From a virus (lineage: Duplodnaviria > Heunggongvirae > Uroviricota > Caudoviricetes), in IMG/VR virus record IMGVR_UViG_3300028840_008153, positions 99,143-163,142 of that record: a DNA stretch of 64,000 bases. One strand, given 5' to 3'. Shown piece by piece: positions 12,236 to 64,000 of the stretch. The notes under the pieces are model-generated. The model ran no database searches, was not told the origin of the DNA, and saw nothing but the letters and a program-made list of their open reading frames with translations. The translations under genes and the position numbers were made by a program. Numbering within the stretch: position 1 is the stretch's first letter; each line of letters opens with the position of its first letter.

Positions 12236-12585
12236 TACGGTGCCCCTCTGTGCTTCTCCATGCACTCCTGCCGGGTGATGTAGATGGTGCCGAACCCGGC
12301 AACGGTTTCCCTCAAATCTCCCACTTGGTCCTGCGCTTCCCTGATCTGCGTGAACGCACGGTCCAGTCCGTTGTCGTGGGCCGTGGTGCGTTCGGTCCTC
12401 TCGGTCTCAATGCGGGCATACAGCCCCTGTGTACGTTCACCGAGCTTCCTGTCAAGATCAGTGACCTGCTTGCGCAGATCCTTGATGGCGCCCCAGGCGA
12501 TGCCCCACAGCACGGCCACGAGAGAGCCGATGATGCCGAGGAGCGCACCAGCCACCCACAGAAACGTGGTCATGTCAACGTTCAT
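12235..12585 (-). CDS. Membrane-anchored coiled-coil protein (116 aa)
   Basis: N-terminal TM helix (FLWVAGALLGIIGSLVAVLWGIAWGAI) followed by coiled-coil. Confidence 0.45.
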   Translation of the reverse strand: MNVDMTTFLWVAGALLGIIGSLVAVLWGIAWGAIKDLRKQVTDLDRKLGERTQGLYARIETERTERTTAHDNGLDRAFTQIREAQDQVGDLRETVAGFGTIYITRQECMEKHRGAP

Positions 12586-53389: not shown

Positions 53390-53599
53390 TCAGGCGGGCT
53401 GGACGTTCGTGGCCTTCGGTCCCTTCTGGCTGTCGGCCACTTCAAACTGCACCTTCTGGCCTTCCGTCAGCGTCTTGCGCCCCTGTCCCTGAACCTGAAT
53501 GTCCGAATAGTGGACGAACAGGTCCTTTCCTCCGTCATCCGGCTTGATGAAGCCGAACCCCTTCTGGTCATCGAACCACTTCACTTCGCCTGCTTCCAT
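53390..53599 (-). CDS. cspA: Cold-shock protein (CspA family)
   Basis: [35 protein letters not shown] (RNP1/RNP2 motifs) with GAGGGGAA RBS. The rest of track ORF 53390..53866 is the 5'UTR. Confidence 0.8.
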
Positions 53600-53899
53600 C
53601 GTAGTTCCCCTCATATCTAAAAGTAAGCTGCCGCTGACCGGGCGCCGGAAAGGCGCCCGGTCAGGGCAAACGAAACGCGAATCGGCAAAAATGGCAGAGA
53701 TCGGCATTAGCGGTCTGAAGACTCCTATCGCGTTAGGCAGAGTCTCCCGATCCCGGGCTTTACCTCGGCTCATCACGAGCAGGCTACACACCTGCGCCGC
53801 TCCCCGAAGTCTCGTATTCAGACAGGAAACCACCCAGCGAGCCTCCCATCCTACGTGCATGGGCACCGGTTTTCGGGCCGGGCCCGTCCCTTCGTCGAT

Positions 53900-53924
53900 G
53901 ATGTAATCCCTGCCGCATCCGACC
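53900..53924 (-). promoter_or_regulatory. Copy of the dispersed promoter-like motif (GATGTAnTCCC-n5-GCATnCGGCC on plus; read on minus as GGCCGnATGC-n5-GGGAnTACATC)
   Basis: One of seven copies; sits about 300 nt upstream of the csp start. Confidence 0.3.
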
Positions 53925-53931
53925 CTCGCTG

Positions 53932-54123
53932 CTACCTGCTCGCGCGCCCGCGTACGCCTGCACGCGGCCCGCGCCCGAGGCCCCGGCCTTGACCGGTGCC
54001 TCTTCCCCGACCTGCTCCCCGGCCGCGTCCGCGTCCCGTGCCTGCCTTCTTATCGCAGGGTCCGAGATCACGTCCGGTCCGGGGCCCTTGGCCCAAGGGG
54101 CCAGTTCCATCACGGTTGGGCAT
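53932..54123 (-). CDS. Candidate Gly/Arg-rich (RGG-like) small protein (63 aa)
   Basis: Tandem GGAGG RBSs precede the ATG; [22 protein letters not shown]; lies downstream of a copy of the promoter-like motif. Confidence 0.35.
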
Positions 54124-54198
54124 GGCGCCCTCCTTTCTGCTCGCCTCCTTGGGTTACTCAGTGGCCGTCAAAAGAATTGCCGAGAGGTCACATTTTCA

Positions 54199-54225
54199 AG
54201 ATGTATTCCCAGCAGGCATACGGCC
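54199..54225 (-). promoter_or_regulatory. Copy of the dispersed promoter-like motif
   Basis: AGATGTATTCCCAGCAGGCATACGGCC; about 75 nt upstream (minus sense) of the RG-rich ORF RBS. Confidence 0.3.
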
Positions 54226-54299
54226 AAAGTGACGCTGTTGATAACGGTCAACATAAAGCCCCTCAAAGCCCCTCGGGGGTCTGGGCACACGTCGCATCC

Positions 54300-54527
54300 T
54301 TAACTCCATTCATCCGGGTTGTAGGTGACATGTCTCACCAACTCCCCACACTTGGGGCATTTCAGCACCAGAACGTGAGCCTTCCGAAAAAGTGCCGTGC
54401 CCAGTCCCTTCATGCTCACCAGAGTTTGCCCCGCTTTTTCCATCTGTTCATAAGGTGAGGGCAATGTCTGTTCGGCGACCGTCTCCCAACTGTGACGGCA
54501 CGCGAGCTTCAGCAGCCATCCCAGCAT
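54300..54527 (-). CDS. Small zinc-ribbon protein (75 aa)
   Basis: CPKCGEL. Confidence 0.35.
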   Translation of the reverse strand: MLGWLLKLACRHSWETVAEQTLPSPYEQMEKAGQTLVSMKGLGTALFRKAHVLVLKCPKCGELVRHVTYNPDEWS

Positions 54528-55994: not shown

Positions 55995-56618
55995 CTATTT
56001 TCTTCCAATCGCTGCGAAGGAGGAGCACACGTCCACCTCCCTCTCCATGTACTCAACCTTGAAGCCGGCCATGAGCATGAGTCGGCCGAGCGTATCCGGT
56101 GTGGGCTGCCACAAATGCTCGTGGCGAACCCCCTCAAAGAGGTGCGGGTCCCACTTCGCATGGCCGGGAGCGGGCAAGTAGATAAACGTCACACCACCCG
56201 GCTTCAAGACCCGATAGAACTCCTCAAGCGCCTTCTCCGGGTCGTCCGCGTGCTCCAGGCAATGGCTGGAAAACACGTAATCCATCGACTCGTCTTCGTA
56301 TTTCGACAGGTCCGTCGCAGACCCGGAATCGGGCAGGCGGATGTCGACGGGGATAGCGCCAGGAAAAGGAAGGAACTCCGTACCATCGCAGGTCACGCCG
56401 CAAGGTCCCACGTCCAGGCCCTTGCCTTTGCAGAACTTCCGTGCGAGGCGGTAGATCCAGCGCATGCCGCTGCCCTTCATTGCTCTGTACGCCTCGGGGA
56501 ACAGCTCGTCACCAGGTTTCAGTCGAACGCGGTGCGTTATGTTCTTGATTTTCCCGTGAACGAAATCCTTCACGCGTCCTTCCTCTCTCGCACGTGCTGA
56601 TGGCCTCTCTTCAACCAT
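55995..56618 (-). CDS. Class I SAM-dependent methyltransferase
   Basis: GLDVGPCGVTCDG (motif I), DYVFSSHCLEH, LKPGG. Confidence 0.6.
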   Translation of the reverse strand: MVEERPSARAREEGRVKDFVHGKIKNITHRVRLKPGDELFPEAYRAMKGSGMRWIYRLARKFCKGKGLDVGPCGVTCDGTEFLPFPGAIPVDIRLPDSGSATDLSKYEDESMDYVFSSHCLEHADDPEKALEEFYRVLKPGGVTFIYLPAPGHAKWDPHLFEGVRHEHLWQPTPDTLGRLMLMAGFKVEYMEREVDVCSSFAAIGRK

Positions 56619-57475
56619 AACTGCAGGCTCTCGTACGGTGTCGCATACGGCGCCATGAGATGAAACCCGGACGTGGACGATACGTGCTCCGGGTCGGCGT
56701 AGGAATCAAACAGCCCGCTTACGCGCTCCCAGTTAGGAAGGTTCCCCCAGAACCACATCATGCACGGCGTGTCGAGCACGTCGGCCAGAATGCCCAGCCC
56801 GCTAGGGAACGCGAAGAAGTAATCAAGCCGCTGGATGACCCGAAACGTGAATCCGATTGGCTGATCAAGGAAGGCCACGGGGTCCTCGCCCATGGCCTGA
56901 AGGGCCGTATAGACCTCCTGCGTGCGATCGTCGTAGGGCGCCCCGATAATCACGAAGCGCGCGGTAGGCAGGTGCATCCTGACGCCCATGAGAAACTGGA
57001 CCCACTCCTTGACCTTCCAGAAGAGAATGTCCTCACGATGCTGGTAGGAGGAGCAGTAGACGCCAACCATCTGGCGCTCGTCACCGAGAATGGTCTTGAT
57101 GCGAGAGCCTGAAGAAAGCGTGGGCATGGACGGACCGTAATGATAGTCCGTGGGCTGATCCGGGTAGGCTTCGGACAAAGGCTTGCCAGACTCCAAATGC
57201 GTGTTGAGTGACAACACGTAGCGGCCGGAGTCCAGCTCGCTGAGTTTCGTGTCGGAGGGCAGCACTTCCTCGAAAGCCTTCCAGTACGGAAGGTCTTCCT
57301 CATAGCCCAAGTTTTCGATGTGGGGCAACAAGTCAACGAAGGGCTTGCTGCGATGCGGAAGATCATTGCAGATGGAGAAAGCCACGGGACGCTGCTTCGC
57401 CAGGGCCTTCACCTTGGAGTAGACCCAGGAGATGTCGCCGATCCCGGGCGGCACTACGAAATGAAGATCACGCAT
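56570..57475 (-). CDS. Glycosyltransferase family 9-like (heptosyltransferase-like)
   Basis: PPGIGDISW N-terminal motif and FPSGLGILADVLDTPCMMWF C-terminal region. Confidence 0.5.
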   Translation of the reverse strand: MRDLHFVVPPGIGDISWVYSKVKALAKQRPVAFSICNDLPHRSKPFVDLLPHIENLGYEEDLPYWKAFEEVLPSDTKLSELDSGRYVLSLNTHLESGKPLSEAYPDQPTDYHYGPSMPTLSSGSRIKTILGDERQMVGVYCSSYQHREDILFWKVKEWVQFLMGVRMHLPTARFVIIGAPYDDRTQEVYTALQAMGEDPVAFLDQPIGFTFRVIQRLDYFFAFPSGLGILADVLDTPCMMWFWGNLPNWERVSGLFDSYADPEHVSSTSGFHLMAPYATPYESLQLWLKRGHQHVRERKDA

Positions 57476-57939
57476 GGAGGCCCTCGGAAAGTTTGATCGT
57501 CAAAGAGTGGAGAGAAACGTGGTTTCTTCATTCATGGAGAAGATGTATTCCCTCCGGGCATACGATCAATACGCTGGCCGTCAAAAGGTAAGGAGAAACG
57601 GTTTCTTTTCCGAAAAAAGATGTATTCCCCTTGGGCATACGGCAATGTTGGTGAGCCGGCAAAAGATTGCTGAGACACATTTTGTCGGATGTAGTCCCGT
57701 AGCGGCATCCGGCTCGATCTCAAAGCGGGCCATCAAAAGACAGAGAGACTATTTTTACCGCTCCCGGAGCCTCCCGTCTAATGGGAGGAGGTGGAGTCGA
57801 ACCACCCGGTTCTTTTTATCAGAAAGATGTAATCCCTCCAGGCATATGGCCCTTTTTCAGGTTTGGTGGCCGGCAAAAGAACGCTGAGACGGGACATTTT
57901 GCAGATGTAGTCCCAGCAGGCATCCGGCCGATTTCAGTT
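57476..57939 (-). ncRNA. Repeat-rich non-coding region next to rsr; candidate Y-RNA-like (YrlA-type) RNA gene(s)
   Basis: No credible ORF. Five copies of an about 27-nt motif. Two 62-nt imperfect-palindrome hairpin elements (57651..57717 and 57866..57930). A tRNA-like T-arm plus acceptor fragment (GGTGG-TTCGACT-CCACC, 57745..57815). Immediately downstream of a Ro60 gene and a tRNA. Confidence 0.35.
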
Positions 57940-58016
57940 TGGTAGCGGGGGCAGGACTTGAACCTGCGACCTCCGGGTTATGAGCCCGACGAGCTGCCTA
58001 ACTGCTCCACCCCGCA
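57940..58016 (-). tRNA. tRNA-Met (anticodon CAT), initiator-type
   Basis: Minus-strand sequence TGCGGGGTGGAGCAGTTAGGCAGCTCGTCGGGCTCATAACCCGGAGGTCGCAGGTTCAAGTCCTGCCCCCGCTACCA. It has three G-C pairs at the base of the anticodon stem, an A11:U24 pair and an unpaired 1:72 position (U·U), with CCA encoded. About 85% identical to E. coli tRNA-fMet. Confidence 0.85.
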
Positions 58017-58058
58017 CCAATGGCGGACCGGCGATTATAGCGCCGGCCCGCCGTTTCT

Positions 58059-59783
58059 TCAAACCTCCACCGCCTCGATTTCGCCAACCCACTTCGCCGG
58101 GCTCAACCCATCCTTGGCGAACATGGAAACGACGTCGAACACGGTGTCCGAGAACCCGCCGACCTGCAGGATGCTGGGATCGCCAGCGCCCTTCACCTGC
58201 GTGGTCGAGTACGGCGTGATGTCGAGACACACCAGCTTCGCCTGCTTGTTGTGGCGTTTGAACCTCTGCCACGCCTTCTGAAGCTCGGTGCCGCGCCGGC
58301 CGCCATACGGGTGGGTACTGTCAATCCAGCTCTCGTAGTCCGAGACCAGGATCACGGTGTCCGCCGGGATGTTGTTGTCGTTGAGGTGATTCACCGTCAA
58401 CGAACAGTTCGTCCCGCCCGAAGGCAGCTCCGACAGGATGCGGGCGTTTGTCATGACCGTATCCCGTGGGTTGAGCCTTGGGTACTCGGACATGGTCGTC
58501 TGGTTGCCAAAGTAGTAGGCGCGCTGCTGCACGCGCCGACCGGGGAGCGCAAGATGATCACTGAACGGGATCACCTGGGCTTCCGGGTTCTTGCGCAAGA
58601 TCGCCGCCGCCATCAACGCCGCCACGTGGACACAGCTCGTCTTCGTGGAGTGGCCTCTCGGCCCCCGGCTCTGAGTGACCGGGCTGTGCATGCTCCCTGA
58701 GATATCAGGGAACACGAACACTCGGCCCTCGATTGCCGGCACGTTCTCGATGGCGACTTCCATCGCCTGTTCAAGCGCGGCCTGAACGGACTGCGGGATC
58801 TCCGGGTTGAGGTTCAGGTAGGCGGTCAGCAACTGGTACGGAAACTGACGGGCCTTCGTGATCTCTTCCCGGTTCTGCAGCCGATTCTCGACCTTCTGGC
58901 GCAGCTCCGCGTTTCCCAACACCCCGTACTTCAGGAAGTTGTTGAGGTTCATGCGCGTGAACTGCCACCTGCCGTTCCGGGCCAGGATCTTCCATTCGGC
59001 CTCGCCGATGCCGACGCCGTCGAGCATCTGGAAGGGCACATCGGGGATCGTCACGTCCTTCACGCCCGCCTTGTGCGCGGTCTTCCAGTTCTCGTATTCC
59101 TTCACCATCTCCGGCAGCTTGTCCGGCTCGTACCGGCGCGTGACCTTCTTGCCCGTAGCGGCAGGCTCCACGCGCTCCTTCCAACCGTCTGGGCCGACCG
59201 GGTCGAAACCCAACAGGTAGCCAAACAGCGCCTCCTTCTGAGGCGTGTTTGGGCTTGGGTGGGCAAGCCGGATCACATCCACGAGAGACGGATCGTTGCC
59301 GACCGAGCCCCGGAAGATGGTCTCCGGGCGGGTGCGATCGAACCAGCGCTGGATCGAGCGCCGCTGCGAAGAAGCCAGCGACTTGCGCCCGAAGACGCCC
59401 GAGCGGACGAACTGCGCGAAGTTGCGCAGCATCTTCGCGTTGTCGATCACCCGATCGAACACCTTGTCGGCCAGGTCACGAGGAGCCTTGCCCAGCGAGA
59501 GGCTCGCCGCCAGGAAGGCCGGCATGTCCTTCATGAGCCCCTTCTCACGGGCGTAGATGGCCAGCTTGGCGATGAACATGTCGTCGACATGCGCGAGCGT
59601 CGACTTGACCGTGTCCAGTTGCCCCTTGGCGGAGACGTAATACGTGTCACCGAAGCATCCGGTGACCGCGTACTGCGCCAAAAGCTCCTTGGGGCCCCGG
59701 CTGTACGCCCGGCCTCCGGCCTCGTTGACGGCATCCGTTTCCGGTGCCTGAGTGTGCGTGCTGAAAAGGCTTTTGTTAGCCAT
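58059..59783 (-). CDS. rsr: Ro60/Rsr orthologue (TROVE plus VWA domains)
   Basis: N-terminal TROVE (…GGRAYSRGPKELLAQYAVTGCFGDTYY…) and C-terminal VWA with the MIDAS motif VFVFPDISGSMHSP; GGGGAGGG RBS. Confidence 0.8.
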   Translation of the reverse strand: MANKSLFSTHTQAPETDAVNEAGGRAYSRGPKELLAQYAVTGCFGDTYYVSAKGQLDTVKSTLAHVDDMFIAKLAIYAREKGLMKDMPAFLAASLSLGKAPRDLADKVFDRVIDNAKMLRNFAQFVRSGVFGRKSLASSQRRSIQRWFDRTRPETIFRGSVGNDPSLVDVIRLAHPSPNTPQKEALFGYLLGFDPVGPDGWKERVEPAATGKKVTRRYEPDKLPEMVKEYENWKTAHKAGVKDVTIPDVPFQMLDGVGIGEAEWKILARNGRWQFTRMNLNNFLKYGVLGNAELRQKVENRLQNREEITKARQFPYQLLTAYLNLNPEIPQSVQAALEQAMEVAIENVPAIEGRVFVFPDISGSMHSPVTQSRGPRGHSTKTSCVHVAALMAAAILRKNPEAQVIPFSDHLALPGRRVQQRAYYFGNQTTMSEYPRLNPRDTVMTNARILSELPSGGTNCSLTVNHLNDNNIPADTVILVSDYESWIDSTHPYGGRRGTELQKAWQRFKRHNKQAKLVCLDITPYSTTQVKGAGDPSILQVGGFSDTVFDVVSMFAKDGLSPAKWVGEIEAVEV

Positions 59784-60118: not shown

Positions 60119-60516
60119 ATGGTTCTCCCATACATCGTCATGTTGGCCTCGGCCCACATGGCCGAGTGGTCCTCGTAGATTTCCTGGTCTTCTCGCCAAA
60201 GCCTCCAAGCCGTGATCGTGTCCTTGATGAAATCAAGGTTCTCGATCAGATCCTCGGAGCCAAACCCGTCCTCCTGCAAAATGCGGGAGTACAGCCGCTC
60301 GTAGTAATCCACGAACCGAAAGGCGATCTTCGAGCGCAGCGCGTCGTTCTCGATGGGAACGCTCAAATCAACCCACCCCCAGTGGTCCGATGCCCAAATC
60401 TTTGACCCACGATCGGGGTCGGTGTGGAGCCAGTCCACTTCCGGGTCAAGTGGAATCGGCGGTGTTAGCGACAGGGTCTTTGGCATCTTCCGTGCTCTCT
60501 TCCTCTTCTTCGTCAA
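60115..60516 (-). CDS. Hypothetical protein (133 aa)
   Basis: ORF. Confidence 0.4.
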   Translation of the reverse strand: MTKKRKRARKMPKTLSLTPPIPLDPEVDWLHTDPDRGSKIWASDHWGWVDLSVPIENDALRSKIAFRFVDYYERLYSRILQEDGFGSEDLIENLDFIKDTITAWRLWREDQEIYEDHSAMWAEANMTMYGRTI

Positions 60517-61129
60517 CCAGCTTTTCGGCCTGCTCGTCGTACCACTCGCGCACCGTGCTAACGAGATCCTCCCATTCAGTCAGATAGATGTCCAGACTTT
60601 TGAGAGGCTCCTCCTCGCCCAGCCAGTGCACGCAATCGTCCTTCTCGTACACGCAGGACGGTGCGAAAGCCGGGTGGTGCGTAGCCAGAATGACCTGAAT
60701 GCCTTTGCTCGTGAGGTAGCTGAATGCGCCGGCCGCTTCGCCGGCCATGGCCACATCGAGCCCCGCTTCGGGCTCGTCTATCATCAGCGTGTCGCCGGGC
60801 GTGACGGCCAGCGCCTTGAGGCTGGCCTGAAAGAGCAAGCTGTTTGCTTCCCCGTGAGACAAGCTCTTCAGCCGCGTTATCGCCTCCGACCGGCTTTCGA
60901 CCGACCGGATGTCCCATCTCGTGGAGTAGTGAAAGATCTTGCCCGGACTCGGGGCCGCCGTCTTCACCACCGTACAGTCCTTGCAGGACTTGATGGCTTC
61001 CAACAGCAGCGTTTTGCCCGACCCAACGTCGCCAAGGACGACGTTGAGGCCGGGCGTGAAGTCTATCGTTTTCCAGGGATATCGAATGAGCTTGTTGTGT
61101 GTTCCGCAGAACTCAACACGATCGATCAT
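60446..61129 (-). CDS. AAA/ABC-type ATPase
   Basis: Walker A GDVGSGKT; Walker B LMIDEPEAGLD. Confidence 0.55.
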   Translation of the reverse strand: MIDRVEFCGTHNKLIRYPWKTIDFTPGLNVVLGDVGSGKTLLLEAIKSCKDCTVVKTAAPSPGKIFHYSTRWDIRSVESRSEAITRLKSLSHGEANSLLFQASLKALAVTPGDTLMIDEPEAGLDVAMAGEAAGAFSYLTSKGIQVILATHHPAFAPSCVYEKDDCVHWLGEEEPLKSLDIYLTEWEDLVSTVREWYDEQAEKLVDEEEEESTEDAKDPVANTADST

Positions 61130-61744: not shown

Positions 61745-62425
61745 TCAAGCCTGCTGTTGAGCAGCGACTGATCTTTTCAAAAAGGCCGCGCCGCCGCTGT
61801 CACGGCTGTGCCACCTGTAACCCCCCTCACGACAAAGGGATGGTCCATAGGCAACCATGACCGCCAACAGTTGCGGGCGAAGAGCGTAGGGATGCGGGTC
61901 CTTCGCACACGCCCTGAAGGTTTCGTTCAGGACCTTCGCTGGCAAACTGAGGGATTTGAAGTTTGCGTTGAGCACCGACCTTGCGCTCGAAAGTTGGAGG
62001 GAGAGGCGTGGGAAGTGTCGACGCACCTGTTCCGCAAAAGCCGCATTGCCTTCATCCACAAGCGTTTGAAGATTCATGAACAGGCTGTACTCGTATGCGT
62101 ACTGTCCTAAGCCGGCTATGTACGTGAACTTGTGACTGCCCCACCATTGCTCGATGTGGTTTCTCAGCCGGGAGCTTGACAGGCTCACTTCCCTCTCCGA
62201 AAGCTCCCGACCCAACGTATCGAAAATGCTCTGGAAGTCATGCCGCTCTCCCTGACGCTCAATCAAAGTCAGGAATTCGGCACACCCCTCGTTGAAACAC
62301 CTGAGAAGATCCTGGTGAGTGTCCTCGCACAAATGCGCCGGAAGCCATCGATGCCGATGCTGAACACGATACTGACTCTCCAGCCAAGCAAGCCTGAATA
62401 TAACCTCTGCAGTCTTTGGGTTCAT
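61745..62425 (-). CDS. Hypothetical protein (about 226 aa)
   Basis: Trimmed to MNPKTAEVIFRLAWL...; ATGA overlap with the upstream gene. Confidence 0.4.
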   Translation of the reverse strand: MNPKTAEVIFRLAWLESQYRVQHRHRWLPAHLCEDTHQDLLRCFNEGCAEFLTLIERQGERHDFQSIFDTLGRELSEREVSLSSSRLRNHIEQWWGSHKFTYIAGLGQYAYEYSLFMNLQTLVDEGNAAFAEQVRRHFPRLSLQLSSARSVLNANFKSLSLPAKVLNETFRACAKDPHPYALRPQLLAVMVAYGPSLCREGGYRWHSRDSGGAAFLKRSVAAQQQA

Positions 62426-63174
62426 GGTGTCTCCAAAGCGTTTTCCACACGTTTCCACCGGGACCCGTGTGGCTGGAAGCCTACGATTACCGTGCGCTCG
62501 GCAAAAGCGCAGGTCCTGCACGTAGAACAATTCTCGCATCCCCGCTGCGCAGCACAGACGAGGACCATCTTGTTTCGAGGTGTATAAGAAACCGGCGGTG
62601 TCTGCCTGCTTATAAGCGTAACTACCGGCCCCACCCCAAGTTCTGAAAGTTCATCAGCTTCGGCCATCGTGTTGGCCGACAGGTTGACAACAAATCCATT
62701 GTCATTGGCGTACTTCACGGCCTCACGGTTCTCCCTGACGGACATGGGTTTGTGAGTATACGTGAAGCCCCTTCTACCGGCATTGGCTTCGACCAGCTGC
62801 TCCAACTGCCGCCGATCGATACGATCCCCCACGCCCGGGAGATCTCCGGCTTGATTATGGCGCCACAGCGTGCCGGGCGCCAGCTTTCTTATGCCCTCAA
62901 GGAAGGCTTCCCAGCAAGAGCCCATTCGGCCGGTAGTCACATTGCGCCAGTGGAGTCCCAGATAGCTGAGATCTGAGTAGCACCCTTTACCGCGCAATGG
63001 ACAAGCAACCGGACAGGTCCATTTGGGACTGATGGAGACCGGGATAGGCCCGGTCTTCATGTTCTTGGATCGCAGCGTCAGGTGGTAGGCCATCCCGCGC
63101 TGGCTGGAGGTGTGATAATCGTGTGCATTTCGATCACAGGAACCTCCCGATAGGTAGAAAGGCAGCAGGCGCAA
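62422..63174 (-). CDS. Hypothetical Cys-rich protein (about 220-250 aa)
   Basis: ORF with several CxxC pairs; start uncertain (M28 or M39). Confidence 0.4.
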   Translation of the reverse strand: MRLLPFYLSGGSCDRNAHDYHTSSQRGMAYHLTLRSKNMKTGPIPVSISPKWTCPVACPLRGKGCYSDLSYLGLHWRNVTTGRMGSCWEAFLEGIRKLAPGTLWRHNQAGDLPGVGDRIDRRQLEQLVEANAGRRGFTYTHKPMSVRENREAVKYANDNGFVVNLSANTMAEADELSELGVGPVVTLISRQTPPVSYTPRNKMVLVCAAQRGCENCSTCRTCAFAERTVIVGFQPHGSRWKRVENALETP

Positions 63175-63231: not shown

Positions 63232-63741
63232 TTATACGCCTGTATTTAGCGGGTCAGGAAGGACCAGGTTGAGATCGATGTGGTCGACCGGTCCCACTGC
63301 CTGCTGGGTGGTATGGACGTCACAGGAGCGAAACCACTCCTCCGGGTGGATCGGGTCCACGTTCTCGGCCATGCGCTCGATAGCCTCACGGAGAGCAGTA
63401 TCCTCCCCGGCCCGCTCCAAACAGACCTCCTTGGACGTGGGCACCACATGGACCTCCCGCAGAAACTCCTTTGGCCAGTACCAGCTATCCCGATCTCGTC
63501 GTTTAAGGTTGGTCGCGTCCAAAATGACCCGGTCGTGCCCGGACAGAAACAAGCTGCGAACCATGACCTTGGTCGTGGCCCACACGAAGCCCTCGGCCTG
63601 CCGGACAAACGGCTGCCCTGTCAAAGCCAGTCGGACGCTGTCCGGGCATACGATCGGCCAATGGTATCGACTGCGTAAGAGGTTTGCTATAGTAGACTTG
63701 CCGCTTCTAGGTAAGCCCACCATCATGACAAGAACGCGCAT
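63232..63741 (-). CDS. P-loop kinase (AAA_33/polynucleotide-kinase-like)
   Basis: MRVLVMMVGLPRSGKST (Walker A) ... VILDATNLKRRDR. The upstream 74 codons of the track ORF are Cys/Arg/Ser-rich read-through. Confidence 0.55.
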   Translation of the reverse strand: MRVLVMMVGLPRSGKSTIANLLRSRYHWPIVCPDSVRLALTGQPFVRQAEGFVWATTKVMVRSLFLSGHDRVILDATNLKRRDRDSWYWPKEFLREVHVVPTSKEVCLERAGEDTALREAIERMAENVDPIHPEEWFRSCDVHTTQQAVGPVDHIDLNLVLPDPLNTGV

Positions 63742-64000
63742 TTTGCCTCCTCCAAACGAACTCGGGCCGAGCGCCTTTCGGCACCCAGCCCGAGTCAATC
63801 CCCCCACGAGATTAAATGGTGCGACCACGATTTGGTAGGTTTGGTCACGGAGGAAGCGAGAATCGTGGCCGCTCCACCGTGTGCATCTTTCTGTTCTCTT
63901 ACTACAACAATGCACGTGGGCACGCAACTGAAAACTACTCCAACAGCTCCACGAAGGTGTCAATGCCGTCCTTTTTCGTACATGCCATCCACGCCTTGAA

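What the first reader, a model, noticed from the sequence alone, without database searches (positions are those of the whole stretch)
57476..59783. Ro60 (rsr) next to an initiator tRNA and a repeat-rich structured RNA region, resembling an rsr-YrlA (bacterial Y RNA) module
Rsr (58059..59783) is followed 43 nt downstream by tRNA-Met(CAT). After that comes 460 nt without credible ORFs.

- One element, 57745..57815 on the minus strand, is a tRNA-like T-arm (GGTGG-TTCGACT-CCACC) plus acceptor-like strand, then a CCTCCC-ATTAGAC-GGGAGG hairpin.
- Two elements are 62-nt imperfect palindromic hairpins: GAGCCGGCAAAAGATTGCTGAGACACATTTTGTCGGATGTAGTCCCGTAGCGGCATCCGGCTC, and its relative at 57866..57930.

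Bacterial and phage Y RNAs (YrlA) are encoded beside rsr and contain a tRNA-like module. This looks like such a locus, possibly with several Y-like RNAs.
Basis: partly seen in the sequence, partly recalled or inferred. Interest (0 to 1): 0.75.

Follow-up and report, generated by a model that had tools for sequence, protein, structure and literature searches.

The report
Phage Ro60 gene with Y-RNA array
A large phage carries a Ro60 (Rsr) RNA-binding protein gene followed by an initiator tRNA and five tandem Y-RNA-like genes, with a sixth 3.3 kb further on; this is a new and unusually rich example of a known protein-RNA partnership, not a new kind of system.

Summary
ORF 58059..59783(-) is a Ro60/Rsr homologue. 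It is followed by an initiator-type tRNA-Met and 464 nt with no credible gene.

That gap holds five tandem minus-strand units, not three. A sixth lies at 54161..54227. All share one plan: closing stem, AUGCC / UUUUG internal loop, a second stem with invariant GGGA/UCUC including a G-U pair, then UACAUC.
- U1, U3 and U6 are short hairpins that resemble YrlB.
- U4 and U5 carry only a small extra hairpin.
- U2 carries that hairpin plus a T arm, an acceptor-like hairpin and a 3-bp stub where the D arm would be.

A model built from three units recovers the other three. A motif-only scan of public genomes and metagenomes returned 66 loci. In 47 of them an Rsr homologue ends 11-647 nt upstream on the same strand. 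Pairing across 76 distinct homologues is 95%, with 16 of 19 pairs covarying. Canonical Rfam YrlA sits beside such hairpins in two bacterial loci.

No unit reaches an Rfam gathering score, and U2 gets no YrlA match. Phage Ro60 with Y-like RNAs is already described. Verdict: new member of a known kind. Expression and Rsr binding are untested.

The parts
58059..59783 (-). rsr: Ro60/Rsr homologue, 574 aa (TROVE ring plus vWA domain)
   Evidence: Pfam vWA_Ro60 and TROVE, PHROG 850, NCBIfam Rsr over full length, PDB Ro60/Rsr chains. About 5180 homologues at E<=1e-30; the closest bacterial ones are about 49% identical.
58021..58063 (-). GC-rich hairpin (CGGCGGGCCGGCG-CUAUAAU-CGCCGGUCCGCC) overlapping a sigma-70-like promoter TTGAAG-17-TATAAT, just after the rsr stop and about 18 nt before the tRNA
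   Evidence: Promoter scan scored 10 of 12, but found 1 site where 1.5 are expected, so the count is not significant. The hairpin was seen. It is absent from relative L126, where the tRNA starts about 12 nt after the stop.
57940..58016 (-). Initiator-type tRNA-Met(CAT) with encoded CCA
   Evidence: ARAGORN and Rfam tRNA at 60.5 bits. U1xU72 mismatch, A11:U24 and GGG/CCC anticodon stem read from the sequence. Same position in L126.
57864..57934 (-). U1: short hairpin Y-like RNA (YrlB-like). Stem GGCCGG/CCGGCC, loop AUGCC / UUCUUUUG, stem with GGGA/UCUC, apical ACAU/AUGU.
   Evidence: Rfam YrlB 26.9 bits, E 0.005. Fold -26.5 kcal/mol, z -2.66. R1 94.6 bits. Orthologue in L126 at 68.3 bits.
57724..57856 (-). 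U2: Y stem (GGGCCAU/AUGGCCC 57846-57852 / 57727-57733; GGAGGGAUU/AGUCUCUCU 57831-57839 / 57742-57750) enclosing a V hairpin (57810-57824), T arm (57790-57806), acceptor-like hairpin (57770-57788) and a 3-bp CCG-GGAG-CGG hairpin (57758-57767)
   Evidence: R1 33.2 bits, E 3.6e-7. With the two Y stems enforced, the fold yields all four inner hairpins at -47.6 kcal/mol against an MFE of -48.8. Rfam tRNA 23.2 bits for the T arm and neighbourhood; no Rfam YrlA hit at E<10. Bacterial units with V+T+AS and no D arm exist.
57650..57720 (-). U3: short hairpin Y-like RNA, a paralogue of U1
   Evidence: R1 73.9 bits. Fold -22.7 kcal/mol, z -2.37.
57572..57649 (-). U4: Y stem plus a small V-type hairpin (UCUUUUU/GAAAAGA) and nothing else
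   Evidence: Not used to build the model, yet recovered by R1 at 29.5-35.2 bits. Same fold plan.
57491..57572 (-). U5: Y stem plus a V-type hairpin (UCUUC/GAAGA). Closing stem GAUCGU/ACGAUC carries two compensatory pairs relative to U6.
   Evidence: Not used to build the model, yet recovered by R1 at 37-40.9 bits. Folds.
54159..54230 (-). U6: distal sixth hairpin unit, 3.3 kb downstream on the same strand, between a 75-aa ORF and a DUF5320 ORF
   Evidence: Motif match. Fold -24.8 kcal/mol, z -3.17. R1 88.9 bits. Rfam YrlB 29.8 bits, E 7e-4, the only Rfam hit at E<=1 in 53550..54350.
56570..57475 (-). Next gene downstream of the array, 301 aa, no recognisable family. Its start lies 20 nt after U5 and no terminator intervenes.
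   Evidence: No Pfam, PHROG, NCBIfam or PDB sequence match. No minus-strand terminator-like site between 57476 and 58058.

Best explanation
This is a phage-encoded Ro60 (Rsr) / Y-RNA module. The phage makes Rsr and a family of six paralogous small RNAs.

Each RNA presents the same Rsr-binding platform. The 5' and 3' ends pair into a 5-7 bp stem. An asymmetric internal loop follows (AUGCC opposite ~8-10 nt ending in UUUUG; CUUUG in U5). Then comes an 8-9 bp stem with an invariant G-C, G-U, G-C, A-U core.

The distal end differs between units and is inferred to be the effector or partner end:
- a plain hairpin in U1, U3 and U6;
- a V-type hairpin in U4 and U5;
- a tRNA-like T arm plus acceptor-like hairpin in U2.

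Inferred mechanism, by analogy with Deinococcus, Salmonella and Thermus phage phiLo:
- The five tandem units are transcribed with the initiator tRNA, either from rsr read-through or from the promoter-like site at 58034..58062, as one precursor.
- That precursor is cut out by tRNA-processing and other RNases.
- The mature RNAs bind phage Rsr.
- The RNPs tether Rsr to host exoribonucleases such as PNPase, or gate its central cavity, redirecting structured-RNA decay or repair during infection.

Shown here: the sequence family, its structure by covariation, its strand, and its tight linkage to rsr. Inferred: expression, processing, Rsr binding and the partner nuclease.
For: - Rsr identity.
- Six motif copies on one strand against 0 expected.
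- All units fold to one plan.
- Model R1, built from U1, U3 and U6 only, recovers U5, U4 and U2 (37-41, 29.5-35 and 33 bits). Nothing else in the 64 kb has E below 0.1.
- Paralogue covariation: 92% of cells paired, 10 of 19 pairs changed on both sides, slid controls 34-53%.
- Homologue covariation: 76 distinct sequences, 95.4% paired, 16 of 19 pairs changed on both sides, slid controls 37-51%, 0 of 500 shuffles reach the observed values.
- G-U is kept at one pair in 72 of 76 sequences. On the opposite strand it would be an A-C mismatch, so the signal is RNA-level and strand-specific. The reverse strand of U6 scores 7.4 bits against 88.9.
- Linkage: the motif-only scans found Rsr immediately upstream on the same strand in 47 of 66 loci; 13 of the other 19 have under 1.1 kb of upstream sequence.
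- Rfam YrlB is the best non-tRNA hit at U1 and U6. Canonical YrlA lies next to R1-type hairpins in L133 and L150.
- Synteny rsr, tRNA-fMet, Y unit is conserved in the 66% relative.
- Literature: Y RNAs lie within 4 kb of rsr on the same strand, several occur per species, one is tRNA-like, and Yrn2-tRNAAsp-Yrn1 is made as one precursor (PMC4201824). Phage phiLo Ro60 binds two phage Y-like RNAs and host PNPase (PMC12135203).
Against: - No unit reaches an Rfam gathering score: YrlB 27-30 bits against 97, YrlA 20 against 69. U2 gets no YrlA hit at all.
- The published GNCGAAN0-1G motif is not matched exactly. The units have GCCGGAUG, GCCGUAUG, AUCGUAUG or GCCAUAUG.
- U2 lacks the near-invariant YrlA D arm.
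- U4 and U5 fold no better than shuffles (z about -1).
- The MFE of U2 is a different fold, 1.2 kcal/mol better than the Y-type fold.
- Covariation was counted on model-fitted alignments, which leans towards the structure.
- The closest phage Rsr relatives (Mx1, L002-L005) show no R1 or YrlA hit within 3 kb.
- There are no expression or binding data.
Confidence: 0.82

Rival explanations
1. The units are cis-acting parts of mRNAs, such as rsr 3'-UTR stabilisers, processing sites or Rsr autoregulatory operators, rather than free small RNAs.
For: In the bacterial loci the first hairpin starts a median of 55 nt after the rsr stop. No terminator or convincing conserved promoter delimits the units. 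The array runs straight into the next gene.
Against: In the window, U1 is separated from rsr by a complete tRNA. Five copies stand in tandem. U6 lies 3.8 kb from rsr, in front of unrelated genes. Known Y RNAs are themselves cut from polycistronic precursors (PMC4201824), so this location does not tell the two readings apart.
Confidence: 0.1
2. The repeats act at the DNA level, as protein-binding iterons, att or recombination sites, or a small selfish palindromic repeat (REP/MITE-like).
For: They are imperfect palindromes repeated in tandem. Assemblies of the related phage break about 170 nt past rsr.
Against: The copies are only about 68% identical, yet they keep pairing through compensatory changes. 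An invariant G-U pair and other G-U pairs make sense only on the minus-strand RNA. The reverse strand scores near zero with R1. The orientation relative to rsr is the same in 47 of the 48 loci with an Rsr match. No copies occur elsewhere in the 64 kb.
Confidence: 0.03
3. U2, and by extension the array, is a decayed tRNA gene cluster. On this reading U2 is a D-arm-less tRNA or pseudogene whose GGAGGGA pairs with UCCUCCC as an acceptor stem.
For: Rfam tRNA scores 23.2 bits (E 0.006 in the small search) with acceptor, anticodon-like arm and T arm. The MFE fold uses GGAGG:CCUCC.
Against: The score is below tRNA's gathering score of 29 and ARAGORN does not call it. There is no D arm and no CCA. The same GGAGGGA is the conserved stem-2 strand of all six units and pairs with AGUCUCUCU as in its paralogues. 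The other five units have no T arm. Bacterial relatives show the same Y stem + V + T + AS layout.
Confidence: 0.05

Closest known systems
Salmonella / Mycobacterium YrlA and YrlB (Rfam RF02553, RF02565; Chen et al. 2014, PMC4201824)
   Same: Both are encoded next to rsr on the same strand and have several Y RNAs per locus. The ends pair into a stem. There is an AUGC / ..UUG internal loop, a GGGA-type second stem and a YUAY element. One member carries V, T and acceptor-like arms, and others are plain long hairpins.
   Different: All scores fall below the gathering thresholds. The CGAA of the GNCGAAN0-1G motif is CGGA, CGUA or CAUA here, and the change is compensated in the paired partner. U2 has a 3-bp stub in place of the near-invariant D arm. 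There are six copies. An initiator tRNA sits between rsr and the array. No rtcBA genes are adjacent.
Deinococcus radiodurans Yrn1 / Yrn2 locus
   Same: Several Y RNAs and a tRNA lie in one polycistronic unit beside rsr. One Y RNA has a T arm but no full D arm (PMC4201824).
   Different: The Deinococcus RNAs lie upstream of rsr, and their Ro-binding helix resembles the metazoan one. The orientation of the tRNA-like module also differs.
Thermus phage phiLo Ro60 with Yrl1 / Yrl2 (PMC12135203; PDB 9KOP, 9L5Y)
   Same: A phage-encoded Ro60 with adjacent phage-encoded Y-like RNAs. It is the best PDB sequence match to this Rsr (8.7e-15). Its RNP binds host PNPase.
   Different: phiLo has two RNAs, placed upstream of the gene. 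Here there are six, placed downstream, and one has a tRNA-like module. The proteins are only distantly related.
R1-type hairpins 3' of rsr in Acidobacteriota, Planctomycetota and Verrucomicrobiota MAGs
   Same: Same motif, same fold and same position relative to rsr. Tandem arrays also occur, for example five units in L133. Architectures are graded from plain hairpin to full YrlA.
   Different: Most bacterial copies keep CGAAUGC, with A-U as the last pair of the closing stem in 70 of 76 sequences. The phage copies have G-C or U-A at that pair.

Membership tests
Bacterial/phage Y RNA (operational definition of Chen et al. 2014) | Encoded within about 4 kb of a Ro60/Rsr gene on the same strand | tested here: met
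   U1-U5 lie 125-570 nt and U6 about 3.8 kb downstream of rsr, all on the minus strand. The definition is quoted.
Bacterial/phage Y RNA (operational definition of Chen et al. 2014) | 5' and 3' ends pair into a stem that carries the Ro-binding sequence on its 5' strand | tested here: met
   Predicted in all six units. The closing helix is 94-99% paired, with 6 of 7 pairs covarying.
Bacterial/phage Y RNA (operational definition of Chen et al. 2014) | GNCGAAN0-1G motif near the 5' end | tested here: not met
   The units read GCCGGAUG (U1, U3), GCCGUAUG (U4, U6), AUCGUAUG (U5) and GCCAUAUG (U2), so each has one or two substitutions. Bacterial relatives of the same model mostly read CCGAAUG. The changed base is the last pair of the closing stem and its partner changes with it.
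Bacterial/phage Y RNA (operational definition of Chen et al. 2014) | Bound and stabilised by Ro60/Rsr | not testable with these tools
   Needs co-immunoprecipitation or EMSA.
YrlA (Rfam RF02553) | Score at or above the gathering score (69 bits) | tested here: not met
   U1 scores 20 bits with the tRNA-like part deleted. U2 gets no hit at E<10, even when searched alone.
YrlA (Rfam RF02553) | T arm with a tRNA-like T loop | tested here: met
   U2 has GGUGG-UUCGACU-CCACC at 57790..57806(-).
YrlA (Rfam RF02553) | Acceptor-like stem-loop (AS) between the T and D arms, and a V hairpin upstream of T after YUAY | tested here: met
   AS is CCUCCC-AUUAGAC-GGGAGG at 57770..57788. V is UUCU-GAUAAAA-AGAA at 57810..57824, after UUAC. 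The layout is described.
YrlA (Rfam RF02553) | Near-invariant D arm (GCUC-A..GGUA-GAGC) | tested here: not met
   U2 has only CCG-GGAG-CGG at 57758..57767. Compare the consensus. Relatives without a D arm exist in L151, L132, L147 and L171.
YrlB (Rfam RF02565) | Score at or above the gathering score (97 bits) | tested here: not met
   U1 scores 26.9 bits (E 0.005) and U6 29.8 bits (E 7e-4). Both are full-length alignments to the model with the same helices. The published search with YrlB found relatives only in Salmonella.
Ro60/Rsr protein | TROVE (HEAT-repeat ring) plus C-terminal vWA domain | tested here: met
   Pfam TROVE at 50 bits and vWA_Ro60 at 54.9 bits, both above cut-off. Full-length alignment to NCBIfam Rsr and to PHROG 850.
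Bacterial initiator tRNA | 1x72 mismatch, three G-C pairs in the anticodon stem, A11:U24, CAU anticodon | tested here: met
   Read from 57940..58016(-): U1xU72, G29-31:C39-41, A11:U24, CAU. The list of features comes from textbook knowledge.

The most novel reading that the evidence does not exclude
The short hairpin units (U1, U3, U6 and their 70+ bacterial relatives immediately 3' of rsr) are a widespread, strongly covarying Y-RNA class that no Rfam model captures at its threshold. This phage has expanded it into a six-member set with graded partner modules: plain hairpin, V only, and V+T+AS. The set is punctuated by an initiator tRNA, so host tRNA-processing enzymes would mature it, letting one phage Rsr assemble several different RNPs. 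In addition, U2 may toggle between the Y-type fold and a D-arm-less tRNA-like fold that differ by about 1 kcal/mol.
Probability: 0.3. Interest if true: 0.55.

Novelty: new member of a known kind. Interest (0 to 1): 0.4.

Why it matters
Ro60/Y-RNA particles are conserved from bacteria to humans, and their functions are still poorly defined. Phage versions have only just begun to be studied; phiLo has two Y-like RNAs.

This locus offers a compact natural series: one Rsr with six RNAs that share the binding platform but differ at the partner end. That series could be used to ask what the variable module recruits.

The work also shows that a short hairpin Y-RNA type, invisible to Rfam at curated thresholds, sits directly 3' of rsr across Acidobacteriota, Planctomycetota, Verrucomicrobiota and phages. 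That gives about 76 distinct sequences as a seed for a proper family model.

It does not change the concept of what Ro60 / Y-RNA modules are.

Tried and rejected
- The Rfam gathering scan of the whole window found only the tRNA.
- MAFFT alignment of five units (A1) was structurally out of register on the 3' side, so it was not used for a model.
- A seventh motif-like site at 53880..53925(-) (GGAUGCGGCAGGGAUUACAUC) does not fold (z +1.7) and R1 does not find it. It was rejected.
- A weak R1 hit at 12375..12430(-) (13.9 bits, E 0.12) was treated as noise.
Only L042 and L071 held real units.
- The nearest phage Rsr loci (Mx1 L001, L002-L005) gave no R1 or YrlA hits within 3 kb.
- Contigs of the 66% relative end about 170 nt after rsr, so U2-U5 have no orthologues to compare.
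- Other contigs that carry the identical Rsr are the same phage (99.99-100% identical over the aligned stretch), so they add no variation.
- The 301-aa gene after the array could not be identified.
- The promoter and terminator scans were no better than shuffles.
- The review PMC10870794 is not held.
Full report
**Setting.** The window has about 60% GC, and the ORFs taken as genes here lie on the minus strand. It is phage DNA. It encodes a tail-fibre protein and a helicase-ligase fusion, and many ORFs hit PHROG families. The exact Rsr protein occurs on a metagenomic contig of 198.5 kb. The nearest cultured relative of the Rsr gene is Myxococcus phage Mx1, at 41% protein identity.

**The observation.**
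- ORF 58059..59783(-) is a Ro60/Rsr homologue. It hits Pfam vWA_Ro60 and TROVE above cut-off, PHROG 850, NCBIfam Rsr over its full length but far below the equivalog cut-off, and solved Ro60/Rsr structures.
- tRNA-Met(CAT) starts 42 nt downstream, at 57940..58016(-). It has a U1xU72 mismatch, A11:U24 and a GGG/CCC anticodon stem. By textbook criteria it is an initiator tRNA.
- 57476..57939 has no credible gene. The one long ORF there is antisense and matches no family.

Read on the minus strand, the gap holds five tandem units, U1 to U5. Each has 5' ..ATGCC-N4-5-GGGA-N-TACATC.. and 3' ..TTTTG (CTTTG in U5), followed by the complement of its own first bases. The 5' motif occurs six times in the window, all on the minus strand, against 0.00 in shuffles. 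The sixth copy, U6 at 54161..54227, lies 3.3 kb further downstream.

**Common fold.** All six fold to the same plan:
- a closing stem of 5-7 bp;
- an asymmetric internal loop, AUGCC opposite ~8-10 nt ending in UUUUG (CUUUG in U5);
- a second stem of 8-9 bp whose core G-C, G-U, G-C, A-U never varies;
- UACAUC;
- a variable distal part.

**Distal parts.**
- U1, U3 and U6 end in a 4-bp ACAU/AUGU hairpin.
- U4 and U5 end in a small UCUU../..AAGA hairpin followed by AACC.
- U2 has that same hairpin (the 'V' arm), then a T arm with a UUCGACU loop, a 6-bp acceptor-like hairpin and a 3-bp CCG-GGAG-CGG hairpin.

With only the two Y stems enforced, the four inner hairpins of U2 appear on their own at -47.6 kcal/mol. 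That is 1.2 kcal/mol above the unconstrained optimum, which instead pairs GGAGG with CCUCC.

**Is the family real?** A covariance model, R1, was built from U1, U3 and U6 only. It recovers U5 (37-41 bits), U4 (29.5-35 bits) and U2 (33 bits). Nothing else in the 64 kb has an E-value below 0.1. Across the six paralogues plus one orthologue, 92% of cells pair and 10 of 19 pairs change on both sides. Sliding the partner by 1-3 columns drops pairing to 34-53%.

**Is it tied to Rsr?** I scanned public genomes and metagenomes with the DNA motif alone (GCCGNATGC-N4-7-GGGANTACATC-N20-50-TTTTG). This returned 21 and 45 loci.
- tblastn with the window's Rsr then found a homologue in 48 of them.
- In 47 of those it ends 11-647 nt (median 55) upstream of the motif, on the same strand.
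- Of the 18 loci without an Rsr hit, 13 have less than 1.1 kb of upstream sequence.
- The genomes are Acidobacteriota (Bryobacterales, Pyrinomonadaceae, Blastocatellia), Planctomycetota, Verrucomicrobiota and a few others. The ~49%-identical bacterial Rsr homologues that carry a source name come from some of the same groups (Pyrinomonadaceae, Planctomycetota).

R1 finds 101 units in these loci, 76 of them distinct.
- 95.4% of cells pair, and 16 of 19 pairs change on both sides.
- Slid controls give 37-51% pairing, and no shuffle reaches the observed values.
- This alignment is fitted to the model, which leans towards the structure. The slid controls and the range of pair types (for example GC, AU, GU, CG and UA at one position) still make the two outer helices convincing.
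- One pair is G-U in 72 of 76 sequences and in all seven phage sequences. On the other strand this would be a conserved A-C mismatch, so the constraint acts on minus-strand RNA, not on DNA.

**Link to described Y RNAs.**
- The only non-tRNA Rfam hits with E-values below 0.01 are YrlB at U1 (26.9 bits, E 0.005) and at U6 (29.8 bits, E 7e-4). Both are full-length alignments using the same helices. YrlA also matches U1 at 20 bits.
- The Rfam YrlA consensus reads stem, AUGCu, uggGgaa, CUA ... aAaAcUuG, stem, which is the plan described above.
- In Verrucomicrobia loci L133 and L150, canonical YrlA passes its gathering score right next to an R1-type hairpin.
- L133 carries five tandem units after rsr: one hairpin, two YrlA units above the gathering score, and two YrlA-like units below it at 57.7 and 38.4 bits.
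- Long R1 hits show a graded series. L151 has V+T+AS without a D arm, and L132, L147 and L171 have T+AS without a D arm. L160 has a full YrlA with the GCUC..GAGC D arm.
- U2 belongs to the group without a D arm, which explains why Rfam YrlA does not see it.

Chen et al. 2014 define candidates as lying within 4 kb of rsr on the same strand. They describe the V, T, AS and D arms and the YUAY element. They find at least two Y RNAs per species, one tRNA-like and one a long hairpin. They also show that Deinococcus Yrn2, tRNA-Asp and Yrn1 come from one precursor. Phage Ro60 with adjacent Y-like RNAs is known from mycobacteriophages and others. For Thermus phage phiLo the particle binds host PNPase. 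Jumbo-phage surveys list TROVE proteins with a tRNA-like partner among RNA-repair functions.

**Departures from the described families.**
- No unit reaches an Rfam gathering score.
- The GNCGAAN0-1G motif is not matched exactly. The first A, which is the last pair of the closing stem and is A-U in 70 of 76 relatives, is G-C or U-A in the phage.
- U2 lacks the near-invariant D arm.
- The array lies downstream of rsr with an initiator tRNA in between. The 66%-identical relative L126 keeps that order (rsr, tRNA-fMet, Y unit), but both of its assemblies stop there.

**How it most likely works.** No minus-strand terminator-like site lies between rsr and the next gene. A promoter-like TTGAAG-17-TATAAT overlaps the rsr stop, but it is not conserved in L126 and is not significant by count. 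I infer one precursor, running rsr-tRNA-U1..U5 or tRNA-U1..U5. The tRNA 5' and 3' processing enzymes and other RNases would release the units, as in Deinococcus. In several other loci tRNAs and Y-like units alternate directly (L183/L184, L176, L141, L071), which fits tRNA-punctuated processing. The shared platform would bind phage Rsr. The different distal modules would recruit or exclude different partners, with host PNPase the precedent. All of this paragraph is inference. Expression, ends, binding and partners are untested.

**Rivals.**
- A DNA-level repeat is contradicted by the conserved G-U pair, by the strand asymmetry of R1 scores and by the fixed orientation relative to rsr.
- A purely cis-acting rsr 3'-UTR element does not fit the intervening tRNA, the five tandem copies or the distal U6.
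- A decayed tRNA could describe only U2, and it conflicts with the pairing that U2 shares with its five paralogues.

**Verdict.** This is a new, copy-rich phage member of the known Ro60 / Y-RNA kind, and it comes with a well-supported hairpin subfamily that current Rfam thresholds miss. Interest is moderate.

Noticed in passing
L042:197-319(-) and L042:405-482(-) (IMG/VR contig; Rsr homologue ends at 575): Two rearranged Y modules sit beside two ordinary ones. One is a 123-nt tRNA-shaped RNA with a 7-bp acceptor stem, canonical D and T arms and an encoded CCA (Rfam tRNA 50.7 bits). Its anticodon-arm position carries CGGAUGCUGGUAGGAGUACAUCC. The other looks circularly permuted: the 3' strand comes first, a UUCG loop closes the normally open stem, and the 5' strand follows.
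   Followed up: partly
L183:6445-7479, L184, L185; L071:2101-2752; L176:4543-4777: tRNA genes and R1-type Y-like units alternate head to tail, for example tRNA-Glu, Y, tRNA-Tyr, Y. No Rsr homologue lies on the fetched stretch, with up to 6.7 kb available upstream. L071 also carries a tmRNA and an initiator-type tRNA-Met upstream of its units.
   Followed up: partly
L131, L151, L135, L161 (Bryobacterales and Acidobacteriota MAGs, metagenome): The bacterial rsr / Y-RNA loci sit directly beside very large tRNA gene arrays: 26 tRNAs in L131 and 22 in L151 within 8 kb.
   Followed up: no
window 53932..54123(-) and 53390..53599(-): Right after U6 comes a 63-aa Gly/Arg-rich ORF that matches DUF5320 (43 bits, cut-off 27) and was not called in the public contig. 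A CspA/CspE-type cold-shock protein gene follows (Pfam CSD 3e-28). The 700 nt between the called genes is otherwise unannotated.
   Followed up: partly
window 58021..58063(-): A 12-bp GC-rich hairpin has TATAAT as part of its 7-nt loop (CUAUAAU), which coincides with the -10 box of a 10/12 sigma-70-like promoter overlapping the rsr stop codon. It is absent from relative L126.
   Followed up: partly
window 57770..57839(-), inside U2: GGAGGGA, the 5' strand of stem 2, can pair with AGUCUCUCU (the Y fold) or perfectly with UCCUCCC (a tRNA-like acceptor). The two folds differ by about 1.2 kcal/mol, so this may be a switch or a coincidence.
   Followed up: partly
L126:9741-9915 and L127:1959-2127: Two independent assemblies of the 66%-identical relative both end about 170 nt after rsr, just past the first Y unit. 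A Logan contig of the window's own phage ends 89 nt after rsr. The likely cause is assembly breaking at the repeats.
   Followed up: no
window 53880..53925(-) and 12375..12430(-): Two weak look-alikes. GGAUGCGGCAGGGAUUACAUC after the DUF5320 ORF does not fold (z +1.7). GGGGCUGUAUGCC..ACGGCCC scores 13.9 bits with R1 (E 0.12).
   Followed up: partly
window 55995..56618(-), 63232..63963(-), 62422..63174(-), 60446..61129(-): Neighbouring genes include a class I SAM methyltransferase, a P-loop kinase of the AAA_33 / polynucleotide-kinase type, DUF7227 and an AAA_21 ATPase. The DUF7227 and AAA_21 genes keep their order in the 66% relative. No RtcB or RtcA was seen among the ten ORFs scanned beside rsr.
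   Followed up: partly
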